Under the pieces are notes generated by a model. The model did no database searches and was not told the origin of the DNA. It was given only the letters and a program-made list of their open reading frames with translations. A stretch of DNA of 60,182 bases, the filler included. It is 5 parts of 5 records of this genome, joined end to end, with 100 filler letters (N's around TTAATTAATTAA, not from the genome) between each part and the next. Parts side by side here need not be neighbours in the genome. Positions count along the whole stretch, not along the records: positions 1 to 24,837 come from SRR31156797_588; 4 more parts are not named here. One strand, 5' to 3'. The translations under genes were made by a program, and so were the position numbers. The stretch's first letter is position 1, and every line of letters starts with the position of its first letter. This document shows positions 15,400 through 54,400 of the stretch, piece after piece.

Positions 15400-15945
15400 A
15401 TGTCAAATTTAAAAGCAAAAATGTTTAATAAAAGAGCAGAAAAAAATGCAACCGAAATCATTAGCAATATCGACATTAAGTCAGGTGATACTATCGCTGA
15501 TTTAGGTTCCGGTGGTGGTTATTATACCTATGCATTTGCAAAAATGGTAAGTCCCAGCGGCAAAGTCTATGCAGTAGACACAGATACTTCTTTATTATCA
15601 TATGTGAAAGATACTGCTGCGAAAAAGCAACTAAAAAACGTAGACACAATCAAGGCAGAAACAGACAATCCAAACCTGCCTGAAGGTAGCTGTGACCTTG
15701 TTTTTTCACGCAATGTTTTTCATCATATCGCTGACCCTGCCACTTATTTTAGACAGCTTAGCAAGAGCTTGAAGCCTGATGGTCGCATCGCAGTCATTGA
15801 TTGGAAACCGGGTGCAACCCTTTTCGCTCACAACACACCACCAGAACAGATATACAGTACTATTCACAAAGCCGGTTACATAGAGTACAAAACATTTGAT
15901 TTTCTTGAAAAACAAAGCTTTACTATATTCAAAAAAGCCAAATGA
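15400..15945 (+). CDS. Class I SAM-dependent methyltransferase
   Basis: ADLGSGGG, VYAVD, LKPDGRIAVIDW; RBS AGGAGG. Confidence 0.88.
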   Translation: MSNLKAKMFNKRAEKNATEIISNIDIKSGDTIADLGSGGGYYTYAFAKMVSPSGKVYAVDTDTSLLSYVKDTAAKKQLKNVDTIKAETDNPNLPEGSCDLVFSRNVFHHIADPATYFRQLSKSLKPDGRIAVIDWKPGATLFAHNTPPEQIYSTIHKAGYIEYKTFDFLEKQSFTIFKKAK

Positions 15946-16198: not shown

Positions 16199-17209
16199 TT
16201 ATTTGGGATTAGTCAAGACTGGCTGTTCATCTATCTCTTGCTTTCTAATTAAGTTCATTTCATCTCTAATTTTTTTTCCTCTAGGGGTTAATTTCCAATA
16301 ATTAGTCTTTCTTTTTTCACTATAAATTGAATTTATTAAACCTAATGCCCTGTACTGATTAAGCAATTTTTTTATTAGTAACTCATCATCAAAATATATT
16401 GATTGTTTACTTACTAACTTATTAACTATATTAGTAATTCGAAATTCACTTATTGCAATTTCTAACATATCAATTGAAATAGCAGAAAATATTGTAGTTA
16501 GTTTTAGTTTTGCACTTTTTTCTAGTTTATTCTTGTTTTTATAATAATGATATTTTATTTCAATATCCGTTTCATCAAAAGCTAGGTTATCTTGTGCTAT
16601 ATAATCTTTTATCTCTTTATTTGCTTTACCTAATTCTTCATTTATTTTAATGTTTTTTTGTTCTAAATCCATAATAACACGACGTAATGAAGCTTCATCA
16701 TATTCTACTCCCCTTTGCCATCCAGGTCGAACAATCTCCTTTTTAGCCTTCATTATAGCTATAGCTACTAATCCAGCTAATTCACCAATATCATTCCAAA
16801 TACTTACGATTCTATTATTCATTACTTTATCCCTAAATGATTCTAATCTTTTAATTTTATCTTCGTCTATATCGTATTTTGCTGGTACTAACTTTGCAGA
16901 ATCATTTATTACAAATGCAAGAATTGGTATACCTTCTTGTTTTGCATACTCATACTCCATTTCAGTATAACTGATACCTGTATTAGGATTTATACTACCG
17001 TATCTTTTACCAACTATAAGAATATAGTAATCACATAAGTCTATAACCTTTTTTATCACTTCAAATTGCTCATTATCCGTAGCAACAAAAGCCTCCATTC
17101 CAGCTGGAATACAGTCTGCTGTCAATAATATATCCATTATCTTTCGTCGTTCTTCAATAAGGTCAGAGTATGTGGAACTTATAAAAACTTGATATTTCTT
17201 TTCACTCAT
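16199..17209 (-). CDS. DUF4062 domain protein (TIR/nucleoside-deoxyribosyltransferase-like fold) with coiled coil and winged-helix-like tail
   Basis: KKYQVFISSTYSDL.EER, PAGME.F, GKRYGS, SYTEMEYEYA, RPGW. Confidence 0.85.
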   Translation of the reverse strand: MSEKKYQVFISSTYSDLIEERRKIMDILLTADCIPAGMEAFVATDNEQFEVIKKVIDLCDYYILIVGKRYGSINPNTGISYTEMEYEYAKQEGIPILAFVINDSAKLVPAKYDIDEDKIKRLESFRDKVMNNRIVSIWNDIGELAGLVAIAIMKAKKEIVRPGWQRGVEYDEASLRRVIMDLEQKNIKINEELGKANKEIKDYIAQDNLAFDETDIEIKYHYYKNKNKLEKSAKLKLTTIFSAISIDMLEIAISEFRITNIVNKLVSKQSIYFDDELLIKKLLNQYRALGLINSIYSEKRKTNYWKLTPRGKKIRDEMNLIRKQEIDEQPVLTNPK

Positions 17210-17907: not shown

Positions 17908-17931
17908 AAAAAACCGCCTGTCTAGGCGGTT
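17908..17931 (-). terminator. Rho-independent terminator downstream of the tmRNA fragment
   Basis: AACCGCCT-agac-AGGCGGTT followed by T tract on the minus strand. Confidence 0.8.
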
Positions 17932-17935
17932 CATT

Positions 17936-18078: not shown

Positions 18079-18104
18079 CGTTGGGTGGGTAGTAGCACCC
18101 AACG
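18079..18104 (+). other. Candidate rolling-circle double-strand origin hairpin
   Basis: CGTTGGGTG-ggtagtag-CACCCAACG, perfect 9-bp GC-rich stem just upstream of rep. Confidence 0.55.
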
Positions 18105-18149: not shown

Positions 18150-19208
18150 ATGATAGATACAATTAGGATAAAAACACATTATATATCAGATGAAGATGCT
18201 GAAAAAGTGAAGTCTAATACACGTATTTATCAAACAATAGATGGTAGTACAGGAATGATAATAAAATCTAGGTACAATACTAGGCTTAACTTAAGTACAC
18301 ATCATTACAGTGTATTTGTTATGGTATGTGATACAGAATTTCAAAAAACATTTTTACCATCAAAAAATAGAAAAGTACCTGAAATGGTGCATTGCCCACC
18401 GTATTTGATTATAGAATGTTCGTTAGCTAAGTTCTTGCAGGGTCATAATGTATATGGCGGTACTGATGATTTAAAAGAAGTAAAAATAATATTAGATTTT
18501 ATATCTGATAGTTATGGAATTAATAAATTAAATTATGAATATTGTTCGTTAGAAAGAATTGATATTTCATATTGTTATAAATTGAATGACGTTAATAGGT
18601 ATCTTGGATATTTGAAAAAAGCTTATTACCCAAGACGTGAAGAAATTACAAGGTCAAAGACAAATAGTCTTTATATACCTGGTTCAACAACAACAATTAA
18701 ATTTTATGATAAGTACAAGGAATACAAAGTACATGATTATAAGAAAACAAAGAATGAAAAAATATTGAATGCTGCGTACAATGTCTTACGTGTAGAAGTA
18801 GAAGTGAAAAAGAGAAAATTGAGAGAAATGTTTAATAACGATTTGAGGTTAAAAAATATTGATATGAAAGCAATTATTTTAAAATTTGATGAAGAAGTAT
18901 TGAAGATATACAACAGGACTGATACAAAAAAACCTGCTATTAGACATGAAAATGTTTATTTAGAACTAACCAAAGTATATGGACAAGTACAGGGCACTTC
19001 TTTATATTCAACATATATGTTATTAATAGAAAATGGTAAAGATTATGTAAGAAATTCATTAGCTAGAAATACATTTTATCGACATATGAGAATGCTTAAA
19101 GATTTGAATATCAATATATTTGCAAAAGGTGATTATCATGTATCAGAAATAGGTGATTGTGAGTTTCATTCTTTTTATCCATCATCAGCATCAGAGAGGA
19201 TTATATAA
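18150..19208 (+). CDS. Phage/plasmid replication initiator, gene II/X family
   Basis: MIDTIRI, ECSLAKFLQGHNVYG, RIDI, KFYDKYKE, LRVEV, RNTFYRH. Confidence 0.9.
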   Translation: MIDTIRIKTHYISDEDAEKVKSNTRIYQTIDGSTGMIIKSRYNTRLNLSTHHYSVFVMVCDTEFQKTFLPSKNRKVPEMVHCPPYLIIECSLAKFLQGHNVYGGTDDLKEVKIILDFISDSYGINKLNYEYCSLERIDISYCYKLNDVNRYLGYLKKAYYPRREEITRSKTNSLYIPGSTTTIKFYDKYKEYKVHDYKKTKNEKILNAAYNVLRVEVEVKKRKLREMFNNDLRLKNIDMKAIILKFDEEVLKIYNRTDTKKPAIRHENVYLELTKVYGQVQGTSLYSTYMLLIENGKDYVRNSLARNTFYRHMRMLKDLNINIFAKGDYHVSEIGDCEFHSFYPSSASERII

Positions 19209-19212
19209 TTAC

Positions 19213-19443
19213 ATGGAGAAGAATAAGTATATTGTAATTTGGTCGTATTCATATCGTTCTATATTTAATGATAATTTAATAAATACAGAGGTATATAATT
19301 GTAAATTTGTAACAAGGTCTACTATGAATAAGTATATAAAAGAACGTTTAAAAAGTAATAATATTGAGAAAAGAAAAGTTCTTTATAAAGGTTTGATTAT
19401 TAAATATGATAGGATTAAACAATCCAACGAGATTGATAATTAA
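19213..19443 (+). CDS. Small basic hypothetical phage protein
   Basis: ORF directly after rep, likely start MEKNKY. Confidence 0.5.
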   Translation: MEKNKYIVIWSYSYRSIFNDNLINTEVYNCKFVTRSTMNKYIKERLKSNNIEKRKVLYKGLIIKYDRIKQSNEIDN

Positions 19444-19465: not shown

Positions 19466-19738
19466 ATGAAAGTAGAACTAAAAGGGATTGTAGTATTTAT
19501 CGAGAAGAATGTGGAATCAACATTTAAGAATGATGATGGTACAACAACAACAAAGAATTTCGATAGGCTGACAATTCAGCAAGAGACTGGAAAACAAGCA
19601 AAGGTAAAGACTGCATGCGGTGAGTTTAAGGATCAGAAGCAATTCTCAGAAATAAAGTTATTATGTCATGTAAATAACTGGTCAATGGGGGGTCGTAGCG
19701 GTATGTCATGGCAAACTGATAAGTACAAAGGAGCTTAA
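19466..19738 (+). CDS. Putative ssDNA-binding protein (pV-like)
   Basis: 90 aa, beta-rich, RBS AGGAG, canonical position after rep. Confidence 0.6.
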   Translation: MKVELKGIVVFIEKNVESTFKNDDGTTTTKNFDRLTIQQETGKQAKVKTACGEFKDQKQFSEIKLLCHVNNWSMGGRSGMSWQTDKYKGA

Positions 19739-19741
19739 TTA

Positions 19742-19882
19742 ATGGAAAGCTACTATGCTAATGATTTCATAGTTCAGTTTTTACAAGGAATATACACTCA
19801 ATTAAATATACTTATTGCCTGTGTAATAATTGGAATTTTGATATATTGCTTAGGCTATATAATCCGTGTATTTATGAGGTGA
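19742..19882 (+). CDS. Small single-TM protein, pVII/pIX-like (not in ORF track)
   Basis: 46 aa MESYYANDF...ILIACVIIGILIYCLGYIIRVFMR; RBS AAGGAG. Confidence 0.7.
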   Translation: MESYYANDFIVQFLQGIYTQLNILIACVIIGILIYCLGYIIRVFMR

Positions 19883-19884
19883 TT

Positions 19885-19974
19885 ATGAGTTATTTATTTT
19901 ATCTAACAATTTTTGCAAATCCTATATTAATTATATCAATTATTGTAAAAATGCTATCGATTAAAAAGAGGTAA
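19885..19974 (+). CDS. Tiny single-TM protein, pVII/pIX-like (not in ORF track)
   Basis: 29 aa MSYLFYLTIFANPILIISIIVKMLSIKKR; RBS GAGGTG; fills the gap between neighbours exactly. Confidence 0.6.
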   Translation: MSYLFYLTIFANPILIISIIVKMLSIKKR

Positions 19975-19976
19975 TT

Positions 19977-20225
19977 ATGGAAACTACAGTAGAAACAATC
20001 ATTGTATATCTTACACCTGAACCAACAGCAATACCTACACCAACACCGACATTTACACCATTACCATCATATACACCTTTGATAACTGATGTTGTAGAAG
20101 ATTTGAAAAGTGTTTATGATTCTATGAGTATTCCAATGCTTAATATGGCATTTTGGATATTTATGATTTCATTAGTAATTGGTATAGCAGTATTAATAAT
20201 TAAGGTTGTATTATCACAAAGATAA
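19977..20225 (+). CDS. Pro/Thr-rich single-TM phage protein
   Basis: TPEPTAIPTPTPT repeat, C-terminal TM; RBS GAGGT. Confidence 0.7.
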   Translation: METTVETIIVYLTPEPTAIPTPTPTFTPLPSYTPLITDVVEDLKSVYDSMSIPMLNMAFWIFMISLVIGIAVLIIKVVLSQR

Positions 20226-20234
20226 GGATTATAT

Positions 20235-20471
20235 ATGGAAACAAATTTATTAAAGGATTTAATGGTTGAACTTGTAACTACCATATCAAATGATATGATA
20301 GGTGCTTTTAAAGGTGCGTTTAGTTCAATTAGTATTGTTTTAGTTTTAATTATTGGAGCTATATTTGTAAATAGATTTATAGATTATATAATTTACGGTG
20401 TATTTGGAGTTAGTGAAATACCTCTAGAGGATAGACCTTTAGAATCTGATGATGATGATTGGATGGATTGA
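20235..20471 (+). CDS. Coat-protein paralog A with acidic C-tail
   Basis: First ~50 aa align with 20908-21078; tail ESDDDDWMD. Confidence 0.7.
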   Translation: METNLLKDLMVELVTTISNDMIGAFKGAFSSISIVLVLIIGAIFVNRFIDYIIYGVFGVSEIPLEDRPLESDDDDWMD

Positions 20472-20533
20472 TTACTCAATAAACTAATTCAAAGTAGCAA
20501 GGTATTAATTCAACATTAGTTAGGAGTATTGTT

Positions 20534-20854
20534 TTGAAAGATAATGTTTTGGAATCTGTTGTAACTGAATTAACCGAAACCGTATCAATTGATATAATTG
20601 AGATGATTCAATCTATTGTAATGATTATGTCTGGATTGTTAGTATTAGTAATAGGTATTGGTTTTTTTATACGATTCATTAAAAACATATTATGGAATTC
20701 TACTACTGATTCATTTAATGGATTTACGAATTATTCATCTGATGGATACATTAATGGAAGTGATTTTTATGCTTTTGATGATGATGACCCTCCATGTGGA
20801 TTTGACGAAAATGGTGAGTTTTACACATTTGATGATGATGATTATAGGGATTGA
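20534..20854 (+). CDS. Coat-protein paralog B with long acidic/aromatic C-tail
   Basis: RBS AGGAG, TTG start; VLES..T.L..T.S.D.I matches the coat protein; tail FYAFDDDD...FYTFDDDD. Confidence 0.7.
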   Translation: MKDNVLESVVTELTETVSIDIIEMIQSIVMIMSGLLVLVIGIGFFIRFIKNILWNSTTDSFNGFTNYSSDGYINGSDFYAFDDDDPPCGFDENGEFYTFDDDDYRD

Positions 20855-20907
20855 TATAATCAGCTAGAGTAAAGCTGTTTATAAATAAATAATTAGGAGG
20901 TACTTGA

Positions 20908-21078
20908 ATGGAAACATCAGTACTGGAGAGCACAATTACAGATTTAGCGACTACTATTTCGGGAGACTTGATTGATACTATTACGAGTATCATGCCAATA
21001 TTAGCAGGTATTCTGGTCCTCGCTATAGGTATACCAGTAGGTATCAAACTGGTAAAAAAATTCACAAAGTCAGTATAA
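20908..21078 (+). CDS. Major coat protein, pVIII-like (not in ORF track)
   Basis: 56 aa METSVLESTITDLATTISGDLIDTITSIMPILAGILVLAIGIPVGIKLVKKFTKSV: acidic N-terminus, TM, basic tail like M13 GIKLFKKFT; RBS AGGAGGT; terminator follows. Confidence 0.88.
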   Translation: METSVLESTITDLATTISGDLIDTITSIMPILAGILVLAIGIPVGIKLVKKFTKSV

Positions 21079-21114: not shown

Positions 21115-21148
21115 AGGGGGTAGTATAGTTATACTATCCTCTTATTTA
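21115..21148 (+). terminator. Terminator after the major coat gene
   Basis: AGGGGGTAGTATA/TATACTATCCTCT stem followed by T-rich sequence. Confidence 0.65.
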
Positions 21149-21162
21149 TTATAGGGGGTATA

Positions 21163-22728
21163 ATGAAAAATATCTACAAAAAGTTTGTTATCATTTTAAT
21201 GGTGTTAGTATTAATTTCAAGCGTTTTAATCGTACCAAAGGTAAATGTTGTACATGCTGATGGAGGAGCAACGCTAATAGCTGGAGCATTTATTGTAATA
21301 TTACTTATGGTTGGTAGTATGATGTGTATTAATTTAATACGAAATTTAGGCGGGAATAGCACACCACAAGCTAAAACTCAAGCAAAAATATATGTAAATA
21401 ATTTAACTGAGGATTTTGTTAATTGGTTACGTGATACTAATAGAACTAGTTCTTATACTATTATGAGTAGTAATGATTATGCTTTATATAATTCTATGTG
21501 GTCAGATTATTTGACTGATAATGATATGCATTCTATAAAATTAGATGCTCAATTAGTTCTAGATTGGCTATGTTTTTGGAAAACTGTTGGTGTATCAGAA
21601 TCTAATAGTTATCTTAATGATAGCTATGCAAATTATCCATCTACTACATATGATAGGATAAAATTTAATTGTTCTTATAACGATGTTGAGATGACAAGAA
21701 CTTATCCAGTAAAATTATTAGAAGATGGAGATGATACATACAGGGACTTATTAGATTATAATAGTCCATCAGACCATTATACTTATTTAGAATTATTAGA
21801 TTTAGGATTTGACCATATTGATGGAAGTAAAACTATGTATTTTTCTGATAATATTAGAGCTAGAAATAAAGATGTAAAATATATGTATGTGTATAAAAAT
21901 GGTTCTAGATTTTATACTAGTTATTTGAATAAGTATGTTTATTATGATGGTTATATACCAAGTGGCTATGATAATCTTTTATATAGAACTTTGTTTTGTT
22001 ATATCGTAGATGTTGCAACAGGACAGATATTTATTAATTTAGTATCTTATTATTCTACTGATTATGGAGTTACATTTAATGGTTTAGGAAATTATAATTC
22101 AATTGCTCAAATGATTGTACCAGTTGATTTAGATGATTTAAGTTTATCTGATTGTACAATACAGACTGCTACAGTTGATGTATCAGATATTCCTGTAACC
22201 AATGAATTAGATATATCTACAATAACAGATAATTCGACTGTAGCCGAAATTACTGATGTAATAGAGGGTTCTACAGTTGATACAGCTACTGGAACTATAG
22301 ATATACCAAGTGCTGATACTGCTAGTGATGCCGTAATTGGTGGAGCTATTACAAATATTTATAATGAATATGTAAATGTTAGTGATACTACTACTGTTAC
22401 ATATGAATATCCTGATTATGAATCTCCCGATATTGATGATGAAACAATGAATAAGTGGAAGCTTCCAAATGCAATTATGACTAGATTTCCGTTTTGTCTG
22501 CCTTGGGATTTAATGAATCTATTATCATCATTTGAACAAGAGCCAGTAATGCCATCAATAACATTAGATTATGAATTGTATATGATGGGTACACCATTGG
22601 AATTGAATATAGAAATACCTTTTGAGGATTTAGGAATAGATGTTATTGCAACTATTACAAGATATGCTTCAGTTATTTCATTTATTTTAGGATTAATATT
22701 CATATCACGTAAAATGATTATGTCATAA
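21163..22728 (+). CDS. pIII-like adsorption protein
   Basis: 521 aa, signal peptide (VHA-DG), Asp/Thr-rich linker, FPFCLPWDL motif, C-terminal TM; lies between coat and pVI-like genes. Confidence 0.75.
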   Translation: MKNIYKKFVIILMVLVLISSVLIVPKVNVVHADGGATLIAGAFIVILLMVGSMMCINLIRNLGGNSTPQAKTQAKIYVNNLTEDFVNWLRDTNRTSSYTIMSSNDYALYNSMWSDYLTDNDMHSIKLDAQLVLDWLCFWKTVGVSESNSYLNDSYANYPSTTYDRIKFNCSYNDVEMTRTYPVKLLEDGDDTYRDLLDYNSPSDHYTYLELLDLGFDHIDGSKTMYFSDNIRARNKDVKYMYVYKNGSRFYTSYLNKYVYYDGYIPSGYDNLLYRTLFCYIVDVATGQIFINLVSYYSTDYGVTFNGLGNYNSIAQMIVPVDLDDLSLSDCTIQTATVDVSDIPVTNELDISTITDNSTVAEITDVIEGSTVDTATGTIDIPSADTASDAVIGGAITNIYNEYVNVSDTTTVTYEYPDYESPDIDDETMNKWKLPNAIMTRFPFCLPWDLMNLLSSFEQEPVMPSITLDYELYMMGTPLELNIEIPFEDLGIDVIATITRYASVISFILGLIFISRKMIMS

Positions 22729-22867: not shown

Positions 22868-23107
22868 ATGGATGTATTATTAAATCAATTGGATAGTTGG
22901 CTTGCTGACCTTGTTAGTTTATTGCCATCAAGTCCATTTACAACAATAGATCATTTGGTATCTAATGAATGGTCGCAGGCACTAGGGATAATAAATTATT
23001 TTGTCAATGTAACAGCAATGTTATATATTGGTGGACTTTGGCTTGTTTCTGTAGCAGGTTATCTTTTAATATCTGCTATTCTAAGATGGGTAAAGGCGGT
23101 GTCATAA
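22868..23107 (+). CDS. pVI-like minor coat/membrane protein
   Basis: 79 aa hydrophobic, LLPSSPF, INYFV, LRWVK; stop overlaps the Zot start (TAATG). Confidence 0.8.
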   Translation: MDVLLNQLDSWLADLVSLLPSSPFTTIDHLVSNEWSQALGIINYFVNVTAMLYIGGLWLVSVAGYLLISAILRWVKAVS

Positions 23108-23802
23108 TGTCAATTTACATTTATACTGGAACACCTGGTAGTGGAAAATCATTAAAAGCAAGTATAGAAGAGCTTGAAAGTATAAATTTCAATAAGTATG
23201 TTATATCAAATTTTCCAATAAACAGTGATTATTACTATAAACATTATGAAAAATGTATAAAAAAAAGAATGGTAAATGATAAAGAATTACGAACTAGACA
23301 TTATAGAAAGGCTGAATGTGAATTATATAATAAGTTCATTTATATGGATAATGATATGTTATCTCAATCGGGAGCAGTTAAAAGACTGGTTCAGATATCA
23401 AAGCGTTTTTTTACTCCTAGAAAAGAAAGCCAAGCATTACTTGTTATTGATGAAGCCAGCGTATTGTTTAATTCTCGTGATTTTTGGAAGAATCCTAATA
23501 GTAAGGCATGGTTGAAGTTCTTCTCACAGCATAGAAAACTTGGATATGACATTATATTGATTACTCAATTAGATTCCGCATTAGATAAGCAGTTATTAGG
23601 ATTAGTTGAATATAATAAGATACATAGATGTTGTAATAATTTTGGGATTATAGGCAAGGTTTTATCTGTTTTAAGAATAAAGTTATTTGTTCAGATAAAT
23701 CAATGGTATGTAGGTCGTGGGCAGGTTGATAATCATCAATTTTTCATGTATCGGCCATACTATAATAAATTATATGATACATATGCGTTTTTTGATGTTT
23801 AG
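23107..23802 (+). CDS. Zot/pI-like morphogenesis ATPase
   Basis: Start MSIYIYTG; Walker A GTPGSGKS, Walker B LLVIDEA, QHRKLGYDIILITQ, YDT. Confidence 0.93.
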   Translation: MSIYIYTGTPGSGKSLKASIEELESINFNKYVISNFPINSDYYYKHYEKCIKKRMVNDKELRTRHYRKAECELYNKFIYMDNDMLSQSGAVKRLVQISKRFFTPRKESQALLVIDEASVLFNSRDFWKNPNSKAWLKFFSQHRKLGYDIILITQLDSALDKQLLGLVEYNKIHRCCNNFGIIGKVLSVLRIKLFVQINQWYVGRGQVDNHQFFMYRPYYNKLYDTYAFFDV

Positions 23803-23910: not shown

Positions 23911-24837
23911 ATGGGGGAGAAAATGAAAAACACATTACCACAATTGAATTACAACAATGTTATTGATACTAATAAAAGTAATATAACATTAAACCAATGG
24001 ATTAATTATTGTCTAGAAAACATCATGTATCAGAGATTAGAAAAAACTACTTTGTATGGATATGAGGGAATTATAAGACGGTATATTAACCCTTTTTTAG
24101 GCTCATTAAAAATAACAAAAATAAAGCCTTATATAATACAAATGTATTATACCAAACTCATTAATCAAATTGGATTATCACCAAATACAGTTATCAAGCA
24201 TCATGATTTGTTAAAAGTAATATTTAAGTATGCATATTTTAATGAATTGATTGATAATAACCCTATTCATAGAGTAATACCACCTAGAAAAATACAACCT
24301 AAAATGAATGTATATAATGTAAAGCAGCTTAATAAATTATTAAGTCTTTCAGCAAATACGAAAATTGAAATAGTAATTGTTTTATGTGTATATTTAGGTT
24401 TGCGTAGAAGTGAAGCATGCGGTCTTTCTTGGTCTGATTTGGATTTCAATGAACGTACTATTTATATACATACTGCTCGGACTTCTGCAGGCTCAGAAGT
24501 GATTGTAAAGGGAACAAAAACGCGTTCATCTACTAGATATCTTCATATGACAGATACAGTTTATAATTATTTGCTTAAGGAAAAATATTTGCAAGAAAAT
24601 AATAAAATTTTATTAGCTGCAGAATATATTGATTCTGATTATGTTCTTGTAATGAAAAATGGTAAACCATATAGACCAAATTATATTTCGGAACTATTTA
24701 CGGACTTTATAAAAGCAAATGATTTACCTAAGATAGTATTACAGGAACTAAGACATACATTTGCATCATTATCCAACGTGGCTAAGGTACCAGATTTTGA
24801 TATTAGTAAAGCACTAGGGCATTCTACACCATCAACA
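23911..24837 (+). CDS. int: Tyrosine integrase, 3'-truncated
   Basis: LGLRRSEACGL.W.D, TKT, QELRHT, LGHS. Confidence 0.92.
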
Positions 24838-24937
24838 NNNNNNNNNNNNNNNNNNNNNNNNNNNNNNNNNNNNNNNNNNNNTTAATTAATTAANNNNNNN
24901 NNNNNNNNNNNNNNNNNNNNNNNNNNNNNNNNNNNNN
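24838..24937. other. Artificial contig spacer
   Basis: N44-TTAATTAATTAA-N44, stops in all six frames. Confidence 0.98.
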
Positions 24938-38798: not shown

Positions 38799-38898
38799 NN
38801 NNNNNNNNNNNNNNNNNNNNNNNNNNNNNNNNNNNNNNNNNNTTAATTAATTAANNNNNNNNNNNNNNNNNNNNNNNNNNNNNNNNNNNNNNNNNNNN
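38799..38898. other. Artificial contig spacer
   Basis: N44-TTAATTAATTAA-N44. Confidence 0.98.
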
Positions 38899-45832: not shown

Positions 45833-45932
45833 NNNNNNNNNNNNNNNNNNNNNNNNNNNNNNNNNNNNNNNNNNNNTTAATTAATTAANNNNNNNNNNNN
45901 NNNNNNNNNNNNNNNNNNNNNNNNNNNNNNNN
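45833..45932. other. Artificial contig spacer
   Basis: N44-TTAATTAATTAA-N44. Confidence 0.98.
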
Positions 45933-54300: not shown

Positions 54301-54400
54301 NNNNNNNNNNNNNNNNNNNNNNNNNNNNNNNNNNNNNNNNNNNNTTAATTAATTAANNNNNNNNNNNNNNNNNNNNNNNNNNNNNNNNNNNNNNNNNNNN
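54301..54400. other. Artificial contig spacer
   Basis: N44-TTAATTAATTAA-N44. Confidence 0.98.

What the first reader, a model, noticed from the sequence alone, without database searches (positions are those of the whole stretch)
20235..21078. Three tandem coat-protein paralogs: one with a basic DNA-binding tail, two with acidic tails
Seen: METNLLKDLMVELVTTISNDMI / MKDNVLESVVTELTETVSIDII / METSVLESTITDLATTISGDLI align without gaps and continue into matching TM segments (VLVLIIG / LLVLVIG / ILVLAIG). The third ends GIKLVKKFTKSV, has the strongest RBS and is followed by a terminator, so it is the major coat. The other two end in Asp-rich tails (ESDDDDWMD; FYAFDDDD...FYTFDDDDYRD). Known: the basic C-terminus of pVIII neutralises the packaged ssDNA. 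Inference: the charge-reversed copies cannot wrap DNA and may be dominant-negative decoys (superinfection exclusion, assembly brake), DNA mimics that chaperone coat protein or strip SSB, or length terminators. I know of no described equivalent.
Basis: partly seen in the sequence, partly recalled or inferred. Interest (0 to 1): 0.8.

Follow-up and report, generated by a model that had tools for sequence, protein, structure and literature searches.

The report
Acid-tailed duplicates of inovirus coat protein
A small filamentous prophage carries, just upstream of its ordinary coat-protein gene, two old extra copies whose DNA-binding basic tail is replaced by an aspartate-rich acidic tail; the feature is real and I found no description of it, but it is seen in one genome only and its role is inferred.

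Summary
Window 17.8-24.9 kb is a roughly 7 kb integrated inovirus (G2P replication protein, Zot-type ATPase, integrase).

**The three ORFs.** P1 (20235-20471), P2 (20534-20854) and P3 (20908-21078) are true paralogs.
- BLASTP gives E 6e-7 to 2e-13.
- The non-membrane N-terminal 25 residues beat 20,000 shuffles.
- Two other small membrane ORFs of the same phage do not align with them.

**P3 is the major coat.** It matches phrog_1646, its best solved-structure matches are fd, M13 and IKe pVIII, its Lys pattern is close to theirs, and a 12-bp terminator follows it.

**P1 and P2.** They have lost most of those basic residues. Both end in DDDD[W/Y]xD. They have Shine-Dalgarno sites and phage-like codon usage. 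Synonymous sites are saturated, yet the proteins remain similar.

**Conservation.** No acid-tailed relative turned up in 1.84 billion representative proteins, 68 related prophage loci or about 800 genomes.

**Function.** This is inferred only. My best guess (about 0.3) is that they fit the coat lattice but cannot sit over DNA, so they work at the DNA-free trailing end. The rivals are an assembly brake, an adaptor for a cytoplasmic partner, superinfection exclusion, or decay.

The parts
18150..19208 (+). Replication initiator (G2P / gpII type)
   Evidence: Pfam PF05144 E 9e-18, phrog_702 E 2e-32
19213..19443 (+). 76-aa basic ORF (pI 9.7, net +8), function unknown
   Evidence: Shine-Dalgarno site GAGAGGA. 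Annotated frame is best by codon score. No family match.
19466..19738 (+). 90-aa protein at the gene V position; putative ssDNA-binding protein (by position only)
   Evidence: No Pfam match; one weak PHROG match (phrog_3250, unknown function, E 0.043). The AF2 model is all-beta but low confidence, pLDDT 51.8.
19742..19882 (+). 46-aa single-pass membrane ORF (candidate minor coat, pVII/pIX position)
   Evidence: Shine-Dalgarno site AAGGAG. Not related to the coat family.
19977..20225 (+). 82-aa single-pass ORF with a Pro/Thr-rich N-terminal part and a basic end (candidate minor coat)
   Evidence: Codon score +41.6 in the annotated frame. Not related to the coat family.
20235..20471 (+). P1: coat paralog, 78 aa, acidic tail ending DDDDWMD, net charge -10
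20534..20854 (+). P2: coat paralog, 106 aa, TTG start, acidic tail with two FY-F-DDDD repeats, ending DDDDYRD, net charge -17
   Evidence: AF2 gives a helix over residues 3-65 and a mostly disordered tail.
20444..20472 (+). 29-nt 3' end of P1, 86% identical to the 3' end of P2 (20827-20855)
   Evidence: the repeat finder family D4
20760..20841 (+). Internal repeat of P2's tail (28 nt, 20760-20787 and 20814-20841, 86% identical)
   Evidence: the repeat finder family D5
20908..21078 (+). P3: major coat protein (pVIII type, no signal peptide), 56 aa, Lys at 47, 50, 51, 54
   Evidence: phrog_1646 E 0.0028. PDB best matches are pVIII of IKe, fd and M13. Relatives P0032-P0034.
21115..21142 (+). Intrinsic-terminator-like hairpin (12-bp stem, T-rich tail) after the coat gene
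21163..22728 (+). 521-aa acidic protein at the pIII position (putative adsorption / end protein)
   Evidence: By position and size only. No Pfam match; one weak PHROG match (phrog_5392, unknown function, E 0.037).
22868..23107 (+). 79-aa membrane protein at the pVI position; its end abuts the Zot start
23107..23802 (+). Zot / pI-type morphogenesis ATPase, 231 aa, no predicted membrane segment
   Evidence: Pfam PF05707 E 2.9e-16, phrog_197 E 1.1e-21. No TM predicted.
23911..24885 (+). Tyrosine integrase (3' end hidden by masked N runs at 24838-24937)
   Evidence: Pfam PF00589 E 2.7e-18, phrog_1 E 3.5e-56. N runs listed.

Best explanation
Shown: P1 and P2 are intact, old duplicates of the phage's own pVIII-type major coat gene. 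They keep the coat's outer (N-terminal) helix and membrane helix. They have lost two (P2) or three (P1) of the four DNA-facing basic positions. Each carries a cytoplasm-side acidic tail that ends in the shared motif DDDD[W/Y]xD. They sit in the same terminator-bounded gene block as the coat gene.

Inferred mechanism:
1. The conserved outer helix is the part that packs subunit against subunit in the virion. P1 and P2 can therefore still dock into the coat lattice.
2. Their tails cannot lie on DNA, so they can only be built in where the lumen holds no DNA.
3. In Ff, coat C-termini point to the trailing (pIII/pVI) end. The tails of the last-added subunits would therefore project into the DNA-free end of the tube.
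4. There the Asp runs would stand in for DNA against the Lys ring of the last coat layers and plug the lumen. This would mark the end of the genome and hand over to the cap proteins.

In short, they would be protein stand-ins for DNA that act as terminating or end-filling minor coat subunits.
For: - Paralogy is shown.
- The outer helix (residues 1-25) is at least as conserved as the membrane helix: 11-12 of 25 identical to the coat, against 5-11 of 21. A mere membrane anchor would not need this.
- Age and selection: synonymous differences are saturated (pS 0.66-0.93) and nucleotide identity is 46-50%, yet pN is only 0.41-0.49.
- Both tails are read in the best of six frames by the phage's codon usage: +13.4 and +25.5 bits against +6.0 and +6.4 for the next frame.
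- Both genes have Shine-Dalgarno sites.
- The shared end motif is kept at 86% DNA identity.
- Loss of the basic positions is visible in the alignment.
- The coat's Lys pattern is close to that of Ff.
- In f1, Lys 40, 43, 44 and 48 line a lumen 20 A across at its widest, and pVIII C-termini point to the pIII/pVI tip (passages of PMC10175506).
- AF2 models P2 as one long helix (residues 3-65) with a mostly disordered tail (pLDDT 71.6).
Against: - Nothing shows that the proteins are made or are in virions.
- No ortholog was found anywhere.
- The one close relative on record has a coat 89% identical, on a single 7,241-nt contig. It yielded no P1/P2-like protein in the exhaustive profile search. 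The pair may therefore be dispensable or lineage-specific.
- The phage already has candidates for both ends: 46-aa and 82-aa ORFs, plus pIII-like and pVI-like genes.
- The C-in topology of P1 rests mainly on homology. Its flanking charges are balanced (my reading of the sequence).
- The orientation argument is carried over from Ff, a distant relative in a Gram-negative host.
Confidence: 0.3

Rival explanations
1. Assembly brake or lattice poison. P1 and P2 mix with the coat in the membrane pool or at the growing filament. Because they cannot neutralise DNA, they slow or cap assembly. That would keep chronic production low, or poison the particles of a superinfecting relative.
For: Same facts as above: a conserved packing helix with the DNA-binding positions lost. 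They are co-transcribed with the coat, but with weaker translation signals: TTG start for P2 and a shorter Shine-Dalgarno site for P1. From memory, not checked here: fd coat mutants with fewer positive charges at Lys48 change particle length and need wild-type coat to assemble (Perham laboratory, 1987-1991).
Against: A phage paying for two dedicated poison genes is unusual. There are no expression data. Nothing separates this reading from the end-cap reading by computation.
Confidence: 0.2
2. Membrane-tethered acidic adaptor. The coat-like part only places the protein at the assembly site. The cytoplasmic Asp-aromatic tail binds a basic phage protein and brings it to the membrane or strips it off DNA. 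Candidates are the Zot ATPase (pI 9.5, net +13, no membrane segment), the gene V-position protein (net +4) and the 76-aa basic ORF (net +8).
For: Charges and pI values. Zot has no predicted membrane segment. The motif is repeated: two copies in P2 and one in P1. The tail is disordered, as for short linear binding motifs. From memory: acidic C-terminal tails of SSB, T7 gp2.5 and T4 gp32 work in this way.
Against: Zot-like ATPases without a membrane segment after the Walker A are the rule in the related loci (18 of 18 candidates, the window's own included), and those loci have no acid-tailed copies. So the tails answer no general need. Conservation of the outer helix is not explained. The end motif does not end in the aromatic residue that defines the SSB tip (recalled).
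Confidence: 0.2
3. Host-directed small membrane protein. P1 and P2 act on a host membrane machine, for example the receptor pilus or an insertase, to exclude superinfection. This would resemble PfsE of Pseudomonas Pf phages, which is also a small inner-membrane protein encoded by the phage.
For: PfsE is a precedent for a non-structural small membrane protein in an inovirus (PMC8764522; search listing and start of abstract only). That it lies among the structural genes is my recollection. Being lineage-specific fits an accessory gene.
Against: There is no similarity to PfsE or to any defence model (PADLOC: 0 families for P1 and P2). It does not explain why a coat copy, with its outer helix conserved, would be used.
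Confidence: 0.1
4. Decaying or non-functional duplicates. The ORFs are leftovers whose tails arose from slippage of GAT repeats.
For: No orthologs and no expression data. The tails contain (GAT)4 runs that could grow by slippage. The closest relative seems to lack them.
Against: Both frames are intact although synonymous sites are saturated. Both have Shine-Dalgarno sites. Codon usage is best in the annotated frame, in the tails too. The end motif is shared between two copies whose cores are only 50% identical in DNA.
Confidence: 0.1

Closest known systems
Ff/IKe major coat protein pVIII (G8P)
   Same: P3 is a short single helix with an acidic outer end, a membrane core and a C-terminal Lys cluster. 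Its sequence stretch is nearly that of fd, M13 and IKe. The gene lies before a terminator and before the pIII-position gene. P1 and P2 share its first 50 or so residues.
   Different: None of the three has a cleavable signal peptide (they start directly with the acidic helix). From memory, Pf3 coat is like this. P1 and P2 lack most of the Lys cluster and carry acidic tails: about 24 residues in P1 and about 55 in P2. No pVIII described in the papers I searched has this.
Ff minor coat proteins pVII and pIX
   Same: Two small helical membrane proteins encoded just upstream of the coat gene and built into one virion end.
   Different: In f1 their C-termini are positively charged and butt against the DNA hairpin (PMC10175506 passages), whereas P1 and P2 tails are strongly acidic. 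pVII and pIX are about 30 aa and are not detectable coat paralogs (recalled).
Tandem coat duplicates in related Clostridia prophages (L067 11904-12092 and 12106-12276)
   Same: Two adjacent coat-like genes in one inovirus, so duplication of the coat gene does happen in this group.
   Different: Both copies keep basic ends (C-side charge +4 and +2). No acidic tail.
PfsE of Pseudomonas Pf phages
   Same: A small phage-encoded inner-membrane protein of an inovirus with a non-structural role (PMC8764522, listing and abstract start only).
   Different: No sequence relation. PfsE is not a coat paralog and has no acidic tail (recalled).
Acidic C-terminal tails of ssDNA-binding proteins (bacterial SSB tip, T7 gp2.5, T4 gp32); recalled, not tested
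   Same: A disordered Asp-rich tail with aromatic residues, used as a protein-binding handle and DNA competitor.
   Different: Those tails belong to soluble DNA-binding proteins, and the SSB tip ends in Pro-Phe. P1 and P2 end in [W/Y]-x-Asp and are membrane-anchored.

Membership tests
Inovirus (filamentous prophage) | pI/Zot-type morphogenesis ATPase | tested here: met
   PF05707 E 2.9e-16 and phrog_197 E 1.1e-21 at 23107-23802
Inovirus (filamentous prophage) | Rolling-circle initiator of the G2P type, several short single-pass structural ORFs, small genome | tested here: met
   PF05144 E 9e-18. Five single-pass ORFs of 46-106 aa with Shine-Dalgarno sites. About 7 kb from G2P to integrase.
Inovirus major coat protein (pVIII), applied to P3 | Sequence match to known major coat families | tested here: inconclusive
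   phrog_1646 E 0.0028. PDB pVIII chains at E 0.058-0.17, four of the five best matches. Consistent but individually weak. No Pfam match.
Inovirus major coat protein (pVIII), applied to P3 | Length of 40-60 residues, one membrane helix, acidic N-side, cluster of about four basic residues at the C-end | tested here: met
   56 aa; N-side charge -5, C-side +4; K47, K50, K51, K54
Inovirus major coat protein (pVIII), applied to P1 and P2 | Homology to the phage's own coat protein | tested here: met
   BLASTP E 6e-7 and 2e-13; shuffles
Inovirus major coat protein (pVIII), applied to P1 and P2 | Basic C-terminal end able to neutralise DNA | tested here: not met
   C-side net charge -8 (P1) and -12 to -14 (P2). 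One and two basic residues are left at the four coat Lys positions. So they are coat paralogs, not major coat proteins.
Ff-type pVII/pIX minor coat | Positively charged C-terminus facing the DNA hairpin | tested here: not met
   Feature taken from PMC10175506 passages. P1 and P2 tails are acidic.
SSB-type acidic C-terminal tip | Asp run followed by a terminal hydrophobic/aromatic residue with free carboxylate (recalled definition) | tested here: not met
   P1 and P2 end in W-M-D and Y-R-D. The last residue is Asp.
Virion component (any minor coat) | Physical presence in particles | not testable with these tools
   Needs virion proteomics. No RNA run holds the stretch.

The most novel reading that the evidence does not exclude
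A filamentous phage uses charge-reversed copies of its own coat protein as built-in protein stand-ins for DNA. Their Asp-rich tails fill and neutralise the Lys-lined lumen where the genome ends, or act as a membrane-tethered DNA mimic at the assembly site. This would give a protein-encoded signal for where a filament stops. No such signal has been identified in Ff; the f1 paper only cites a suggested change in pI/pXI at the DNA terminus (PMC10175506 passages).
Probability: 0.25. Interest if true: 0.8.

Novelty: new variant of a known kind. Interest (0 to 1): 0.5.

Why it matters
How a filamentous phage senses the end of its DNA and switches from adding coat subunits to adding the cap is still unsolved for Ff. 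Gram-positive inoviruses are hardly studied at all. A natural coat copy that fits the lattice but repels DNA would be a ready-made probe for that step. It would also be a natural counterpart of the engineered charge mutants used to change particle length, and a possible handle for controlling nanorod length in phage display.

If the tails instead bind the ATPase or the ssDNA-binding protein, they would show how a Zot protein without a membrane segment is coupled to the membrane.

The weight of all this is limited: the feature is known from one metagenome-derived genome, with no expression or conservation data.

Tried and rejected
**Searches for relatives that found nothing**
- P2 against 5.8 billion protein clusters: 5 word candidates, none at E <= 0.01.
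- P2 and P3 by tblastn against 50,697 phage records: no match at E <= 1.
- Six scans of viral contigs, with G2P, P3, the P3+P0032 alignment, P2, Zot and the pIII-like protein, and one scan of metagenome contigs: no relative.
I then used the two-row alignment A4.
- ESM Atlas for P2: best score 0.77, below the level the tool calls a lead.

The 7,241-nt contig of the closest relative could therefore not be read.

**Sequencing runs**
- The look-up of sequencing runs listed no RNA holder and only one DNA run holding the stretch.
- Laying its contigs showed low-depth pieces; the eight listed were identical to the window. The other letters reported all lay at 24013-24565, inside the integrase gene, and none in the coat region.
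- The two joints reported there have sides of 20-21 letters, below the tool's own reliability mark. I ignore them.

**Structure and binding**
- Complex prediction of Zot with P2 residues 45-106 gave no verdict.
- AF2 of the gene V-position protein is all-beta but too uncertain for a fold search (pLDDT 51.8).

**Ideas dropped**
- The 82-aa or 46-aa ORF as a fourth paralog.
- The tails as the general membrane anchor of a Zot without a membrane segment. Relatives have the same kind of Zot without such tails.
- EF-hand or dockerin-like calcium loops in P2's tail. This was an impression by eye. For P2 Pfam gives only four matches, all far below their cut-offs and all within residues 3-67, none in the tail.
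- att sites: no convincing flanking direct repeat and no tRNA. The right end is partly masked.

**Other**
- Promoter-like sites are not enriched: 52 found against 59 expected.
- No whole genome is held for the window.

Full report
**What is there.** The finding lies inside a compact filamentous prophage. From left to right on the + strand it holds:
- a G2P-type replication initiator (18150-19208; PF05144 E 9e-18, phrog_702 E 2e-32)
- a 76-aa basic ORF (19213-19443)
- a 90-aa protein at the gene V position (19466-19738; no Pfam match, one weak PHROG match at E 0.043)
- small single-pass ORFs of 46 aa and 82 aa
- the three ORFs of the finding
- a 521-aa acidic protein at the pIII position
- a 79-aa membrane protein at the pVI position
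- a Zot/pI-type ATPase (23107-23802; PF05707 E 2.9e-16)
- a tyrosine integrase (PF00589 E 2.7e-18), whose end is hidden by masked N runs

GC is 29% in the phage and 32% in the window. No whole genome is held for the window.

**Check of the observation.** P1 (20235-20471, 78 aa), P2 (20534-20854, 106 aa, TTG start) and P3 (20908-21078, 56 aa) align from residue 1 without gaps.
- BLASTP gives P1/P3 39% over 41 residues (E 6e-7), P2/P3 47% over 51 (E 2e-13) and P1/P2 37% over 54 (E 2e-7).
- Twelve columns are invariant.
It fails. The signal sits mainly in the non-membrane N-terminal 25 residues, where 0 of 20,000 shuffles reach the observed score for P1/P3 and P2/P3, and 1 of 20,000 for P1/P2. 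The membrane stretch alone is weak for P1/P3 (2,167 of 20,000).
- The other two single-pass ORFs of the same phage do not match the family (BLASTP E = 12; hhalign probability 4% and 1%).
- A profile of the three N-terminal domains scores nothing above 13.0 bits in the ORFs of 68 related loci (5,927 ORFs searched, the window's included).
- phmmer with P1, P2 and P3 finds only each other, plus one weak coat match in L063 (E 0.007).

**P3 is the major coat.**
- It matches phrog_1646 'major coat protein' (E 0.0028).
- Four of its five best matches among solved structures are pVIII of IKe, fd, f1 and M13 (E 0.058-0.17, each weak alone). They share a nearly identical G-I-K-L-x-K-K-F-T stretch.
- Its Lys residues at 47, 50, 51 and 54 closely parallel Ff Lys 40, 43, 44 and 48, which line the DNA cavity in f1 (passages of PMC10175506).
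- It has the strongest Shine-Dalgarno site (TAGGAGG).
- It is followed by a hairpin with a 12-bp stem and a T-rich tail at 21115-21142. No terminator-like site lies between the three genes.
- An exhaustive profile search of 1.84 billion representative proteins gave only three relatives, of 56, 64 and 56 aa, all ending basic.

**P1 and P2 look like working genes.**
- They are old. Nucleotide identity over the first 156 nt is 46-50% and synonymous differences are saturated (pS 0.66-0.93). Non-synonymous differences are lower (pN 0.41-0.49).
- Both have Shine-Dalgarno sites: AAGGA for P1 and TAGGAG for P2.
- Scored with the codon usage of the other phage genes, the annotated frame is the best of six for the cores and for the acidic tails. 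The tails score +13.4 and +25.5 bits, against +6.0 and +6.4 for the next frame.
- At the four coat Lys positions P2 keeps R, K, N, W and P1 keeps R, D, Y, Y.
- Net charge is -10 for P1 and -17 for P2.
- Both tails end in DDDD[W/Y]xD. The last 29 nt of the two genes are 86% identical, far above the cores.
- P2 holds an internal 28-nt repeat, which gives two FY-x-F-DDDD units.
- AF2 models P2 as one helix over residues 3-65, followed by a mostly disordered tail with a small hairpin (pLDDT 71.6).

**Conservation.** This is the weak point.
- The G2P protein has 31 relatives in the large collection. The best are 46% identical.
- With their alignment I fetched 68 prophage loci from gut Clostridia and Bacilli MAGs.
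- In these loci 25 single-pass ORFs have a net-acidic C-side (27 of 912 with the window's two). By my reading of the printed sequences most are host membrane proteins, many with a basic N-side, and none belongs to the coat family. DDDD occurs in no ORF of these loci.
- These loci are distant. Only G2P, Zot (three weak matches) and one coat are detectably similar to the window's genes. Their silence therefore weighs little.
- More telling is P0032, a coat 89% identical to P3. It sits on a single contig of 7,241 nt, the same length as the contig of G2P homolog P0002. The profile search returned no P1- or P2-like protein at all. So that close relative either lacks them or they were not called as genes.
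- Sampling 401 and 399 genomes of two classes gave 1 and 7 weak matches. On inspection only one (L077) is an inovirus coat: 66 aa, basic end, next to a Zot-like gene, and with no acid-tailed copy.
- Coat duplication as such does occur in the group. L067 has two adjacent coat genes, both with basic ends.

**How it most likely works.** Two facts constrain the options. First, the part kept in common with the coat includes the outer helix, which in the virion makes the subunit-to-subunit contacts. It is at least as conserved as the membrane helix. Second, the part that touches DNA has been replaced by its electrostatic opposite.

Such a protein fits the lattice but cannot lie on DNA. So it either ends up where there is no DNA or it disturbs assembly. 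In f1 the coat's C-termini point to the trailing pIII/pVI tip, and the lumen is 20 A across at its widest and lined with Lys. Tails of the last subunits would therefore project into the DNA-free end.

I take this 'DNA stand-in at the trailing end, terminating subunit' reading as the best single mechanism, at about 0.3. Every step after 'lattice-compatible, DNA-incompatible' is inference.

The rivals are:
- a brake or lattice poison (0.2)
- a membrane-tethered acidic adaptor for a basic partner, such as the Zot ATPase (pI 9.5, no membrane segment), the gene V-position protein or the 76-aa ORF (0.2). Against this, Zot-like ATPases without a membrane segment are the rule among the related loci that lack such tails (18 of 18 candidates, the window's own included).
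- a host-directed exclusion protein in the manner of PfsE (0.1; PMC8764522, listing and abstract start only)
- decay (0.1)

The topology (tails in the cytoplasm) follows from homology with the coat and from R47/K50 in P2. For P1 the flanking charges are balanced, so it is less sure.

**Comparison with what is known.** P3 is an ordinary pVIII-type coat without a signal peptide. P1 and P2 are paralogs of it but fail the defining basic-tail feature, so I do not file them as major coat proteins. They also fail the positive C-terminus of pVII/pIX, and the terminal aromatic residue of the SSB tip (recalled).

I found no report of acid-tailed coat paralogs.
- Full-text searches returned nothing relevant.
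- The Enterocloster inovirus paper does not discuss coat proteins (0 occurrences).
- Passages of the global inovirus survey describe structural proteins only by size and membrane segments.
- These searches cover open-access papers and preprints only. Supplementary tables of the survey were not read.

**Verdict.** The acid-tailed copies are a real and, as far as I could find, undescribed variant of a known protein kind. So far it is a one-genome feature with no expression or conservation evidence, and its function is inferred.

Noticed in passing
window 15400-15945 (+) and 16199-17209 (-): Just left of the prophage lie two genes. One is a methyltransferase that matches the PADLOC model mad2 (E 1.1e-22). 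The other is a DUF4062 protein (Pfam E 1.6e-29; phrog_15411 E 1.4e-77). They may be a small defence or mobile island next to the integration site.
   Followed up: partly
window 17911-17932 and 18079-18104 (- strand): Two GC-rich hairpins (9-bp stems) lie in the 420-nt non-coding stretch upstream of the replication gene. They are candidates for the origin or packaging signal of the single-stranded genome rather than terminators.
   Followed up: no
window 23107-23802; loci: The Zot/pI-type ATPase is only 231 aa and has no predicted membrane segment. The same holds after the Walker A motif for all 18 candidate ATPases found (17 in the related Firmicute loci plus the window's own). So in this group the membrane part of pI must be supplied by another protein.
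   Followed up: partly
L067 11904-12092 and 12106-12276; L063 5171-5329 and 5670-6074: A related prophage (L067) has two adjacent coat genes, both with basic ends. Another (L063) has a 134-aa protein whose C-terminal part resembles its own 52-aa coat, that is, a coat copy with an N-terminal extension.
   Followed up: no
window 19846-19974 (+): This 42-aa ORF overlaps the end of the 46-aa ORF. It has no Shine-Dalgarno site and a codon score of -0.7, so it is probably not a gene.
   Followed up: partly
window 20467-20480 and 23556-23569: An exact 14-nt repeat that is itself a small inverted repeat. One copy overlaps the stop codon of P1 and the other lies inside the Zot gene (family D15). It may be chance.
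   Followed up: no
window 24838-24937, 38799-38898, 45833-45932, 54301-54400: Four places each hold a pair of 44-nt N runs separated by 12 bases. The first pair hides the 3' end of the integrase and possibly the right attachment site.
   Followed up: no
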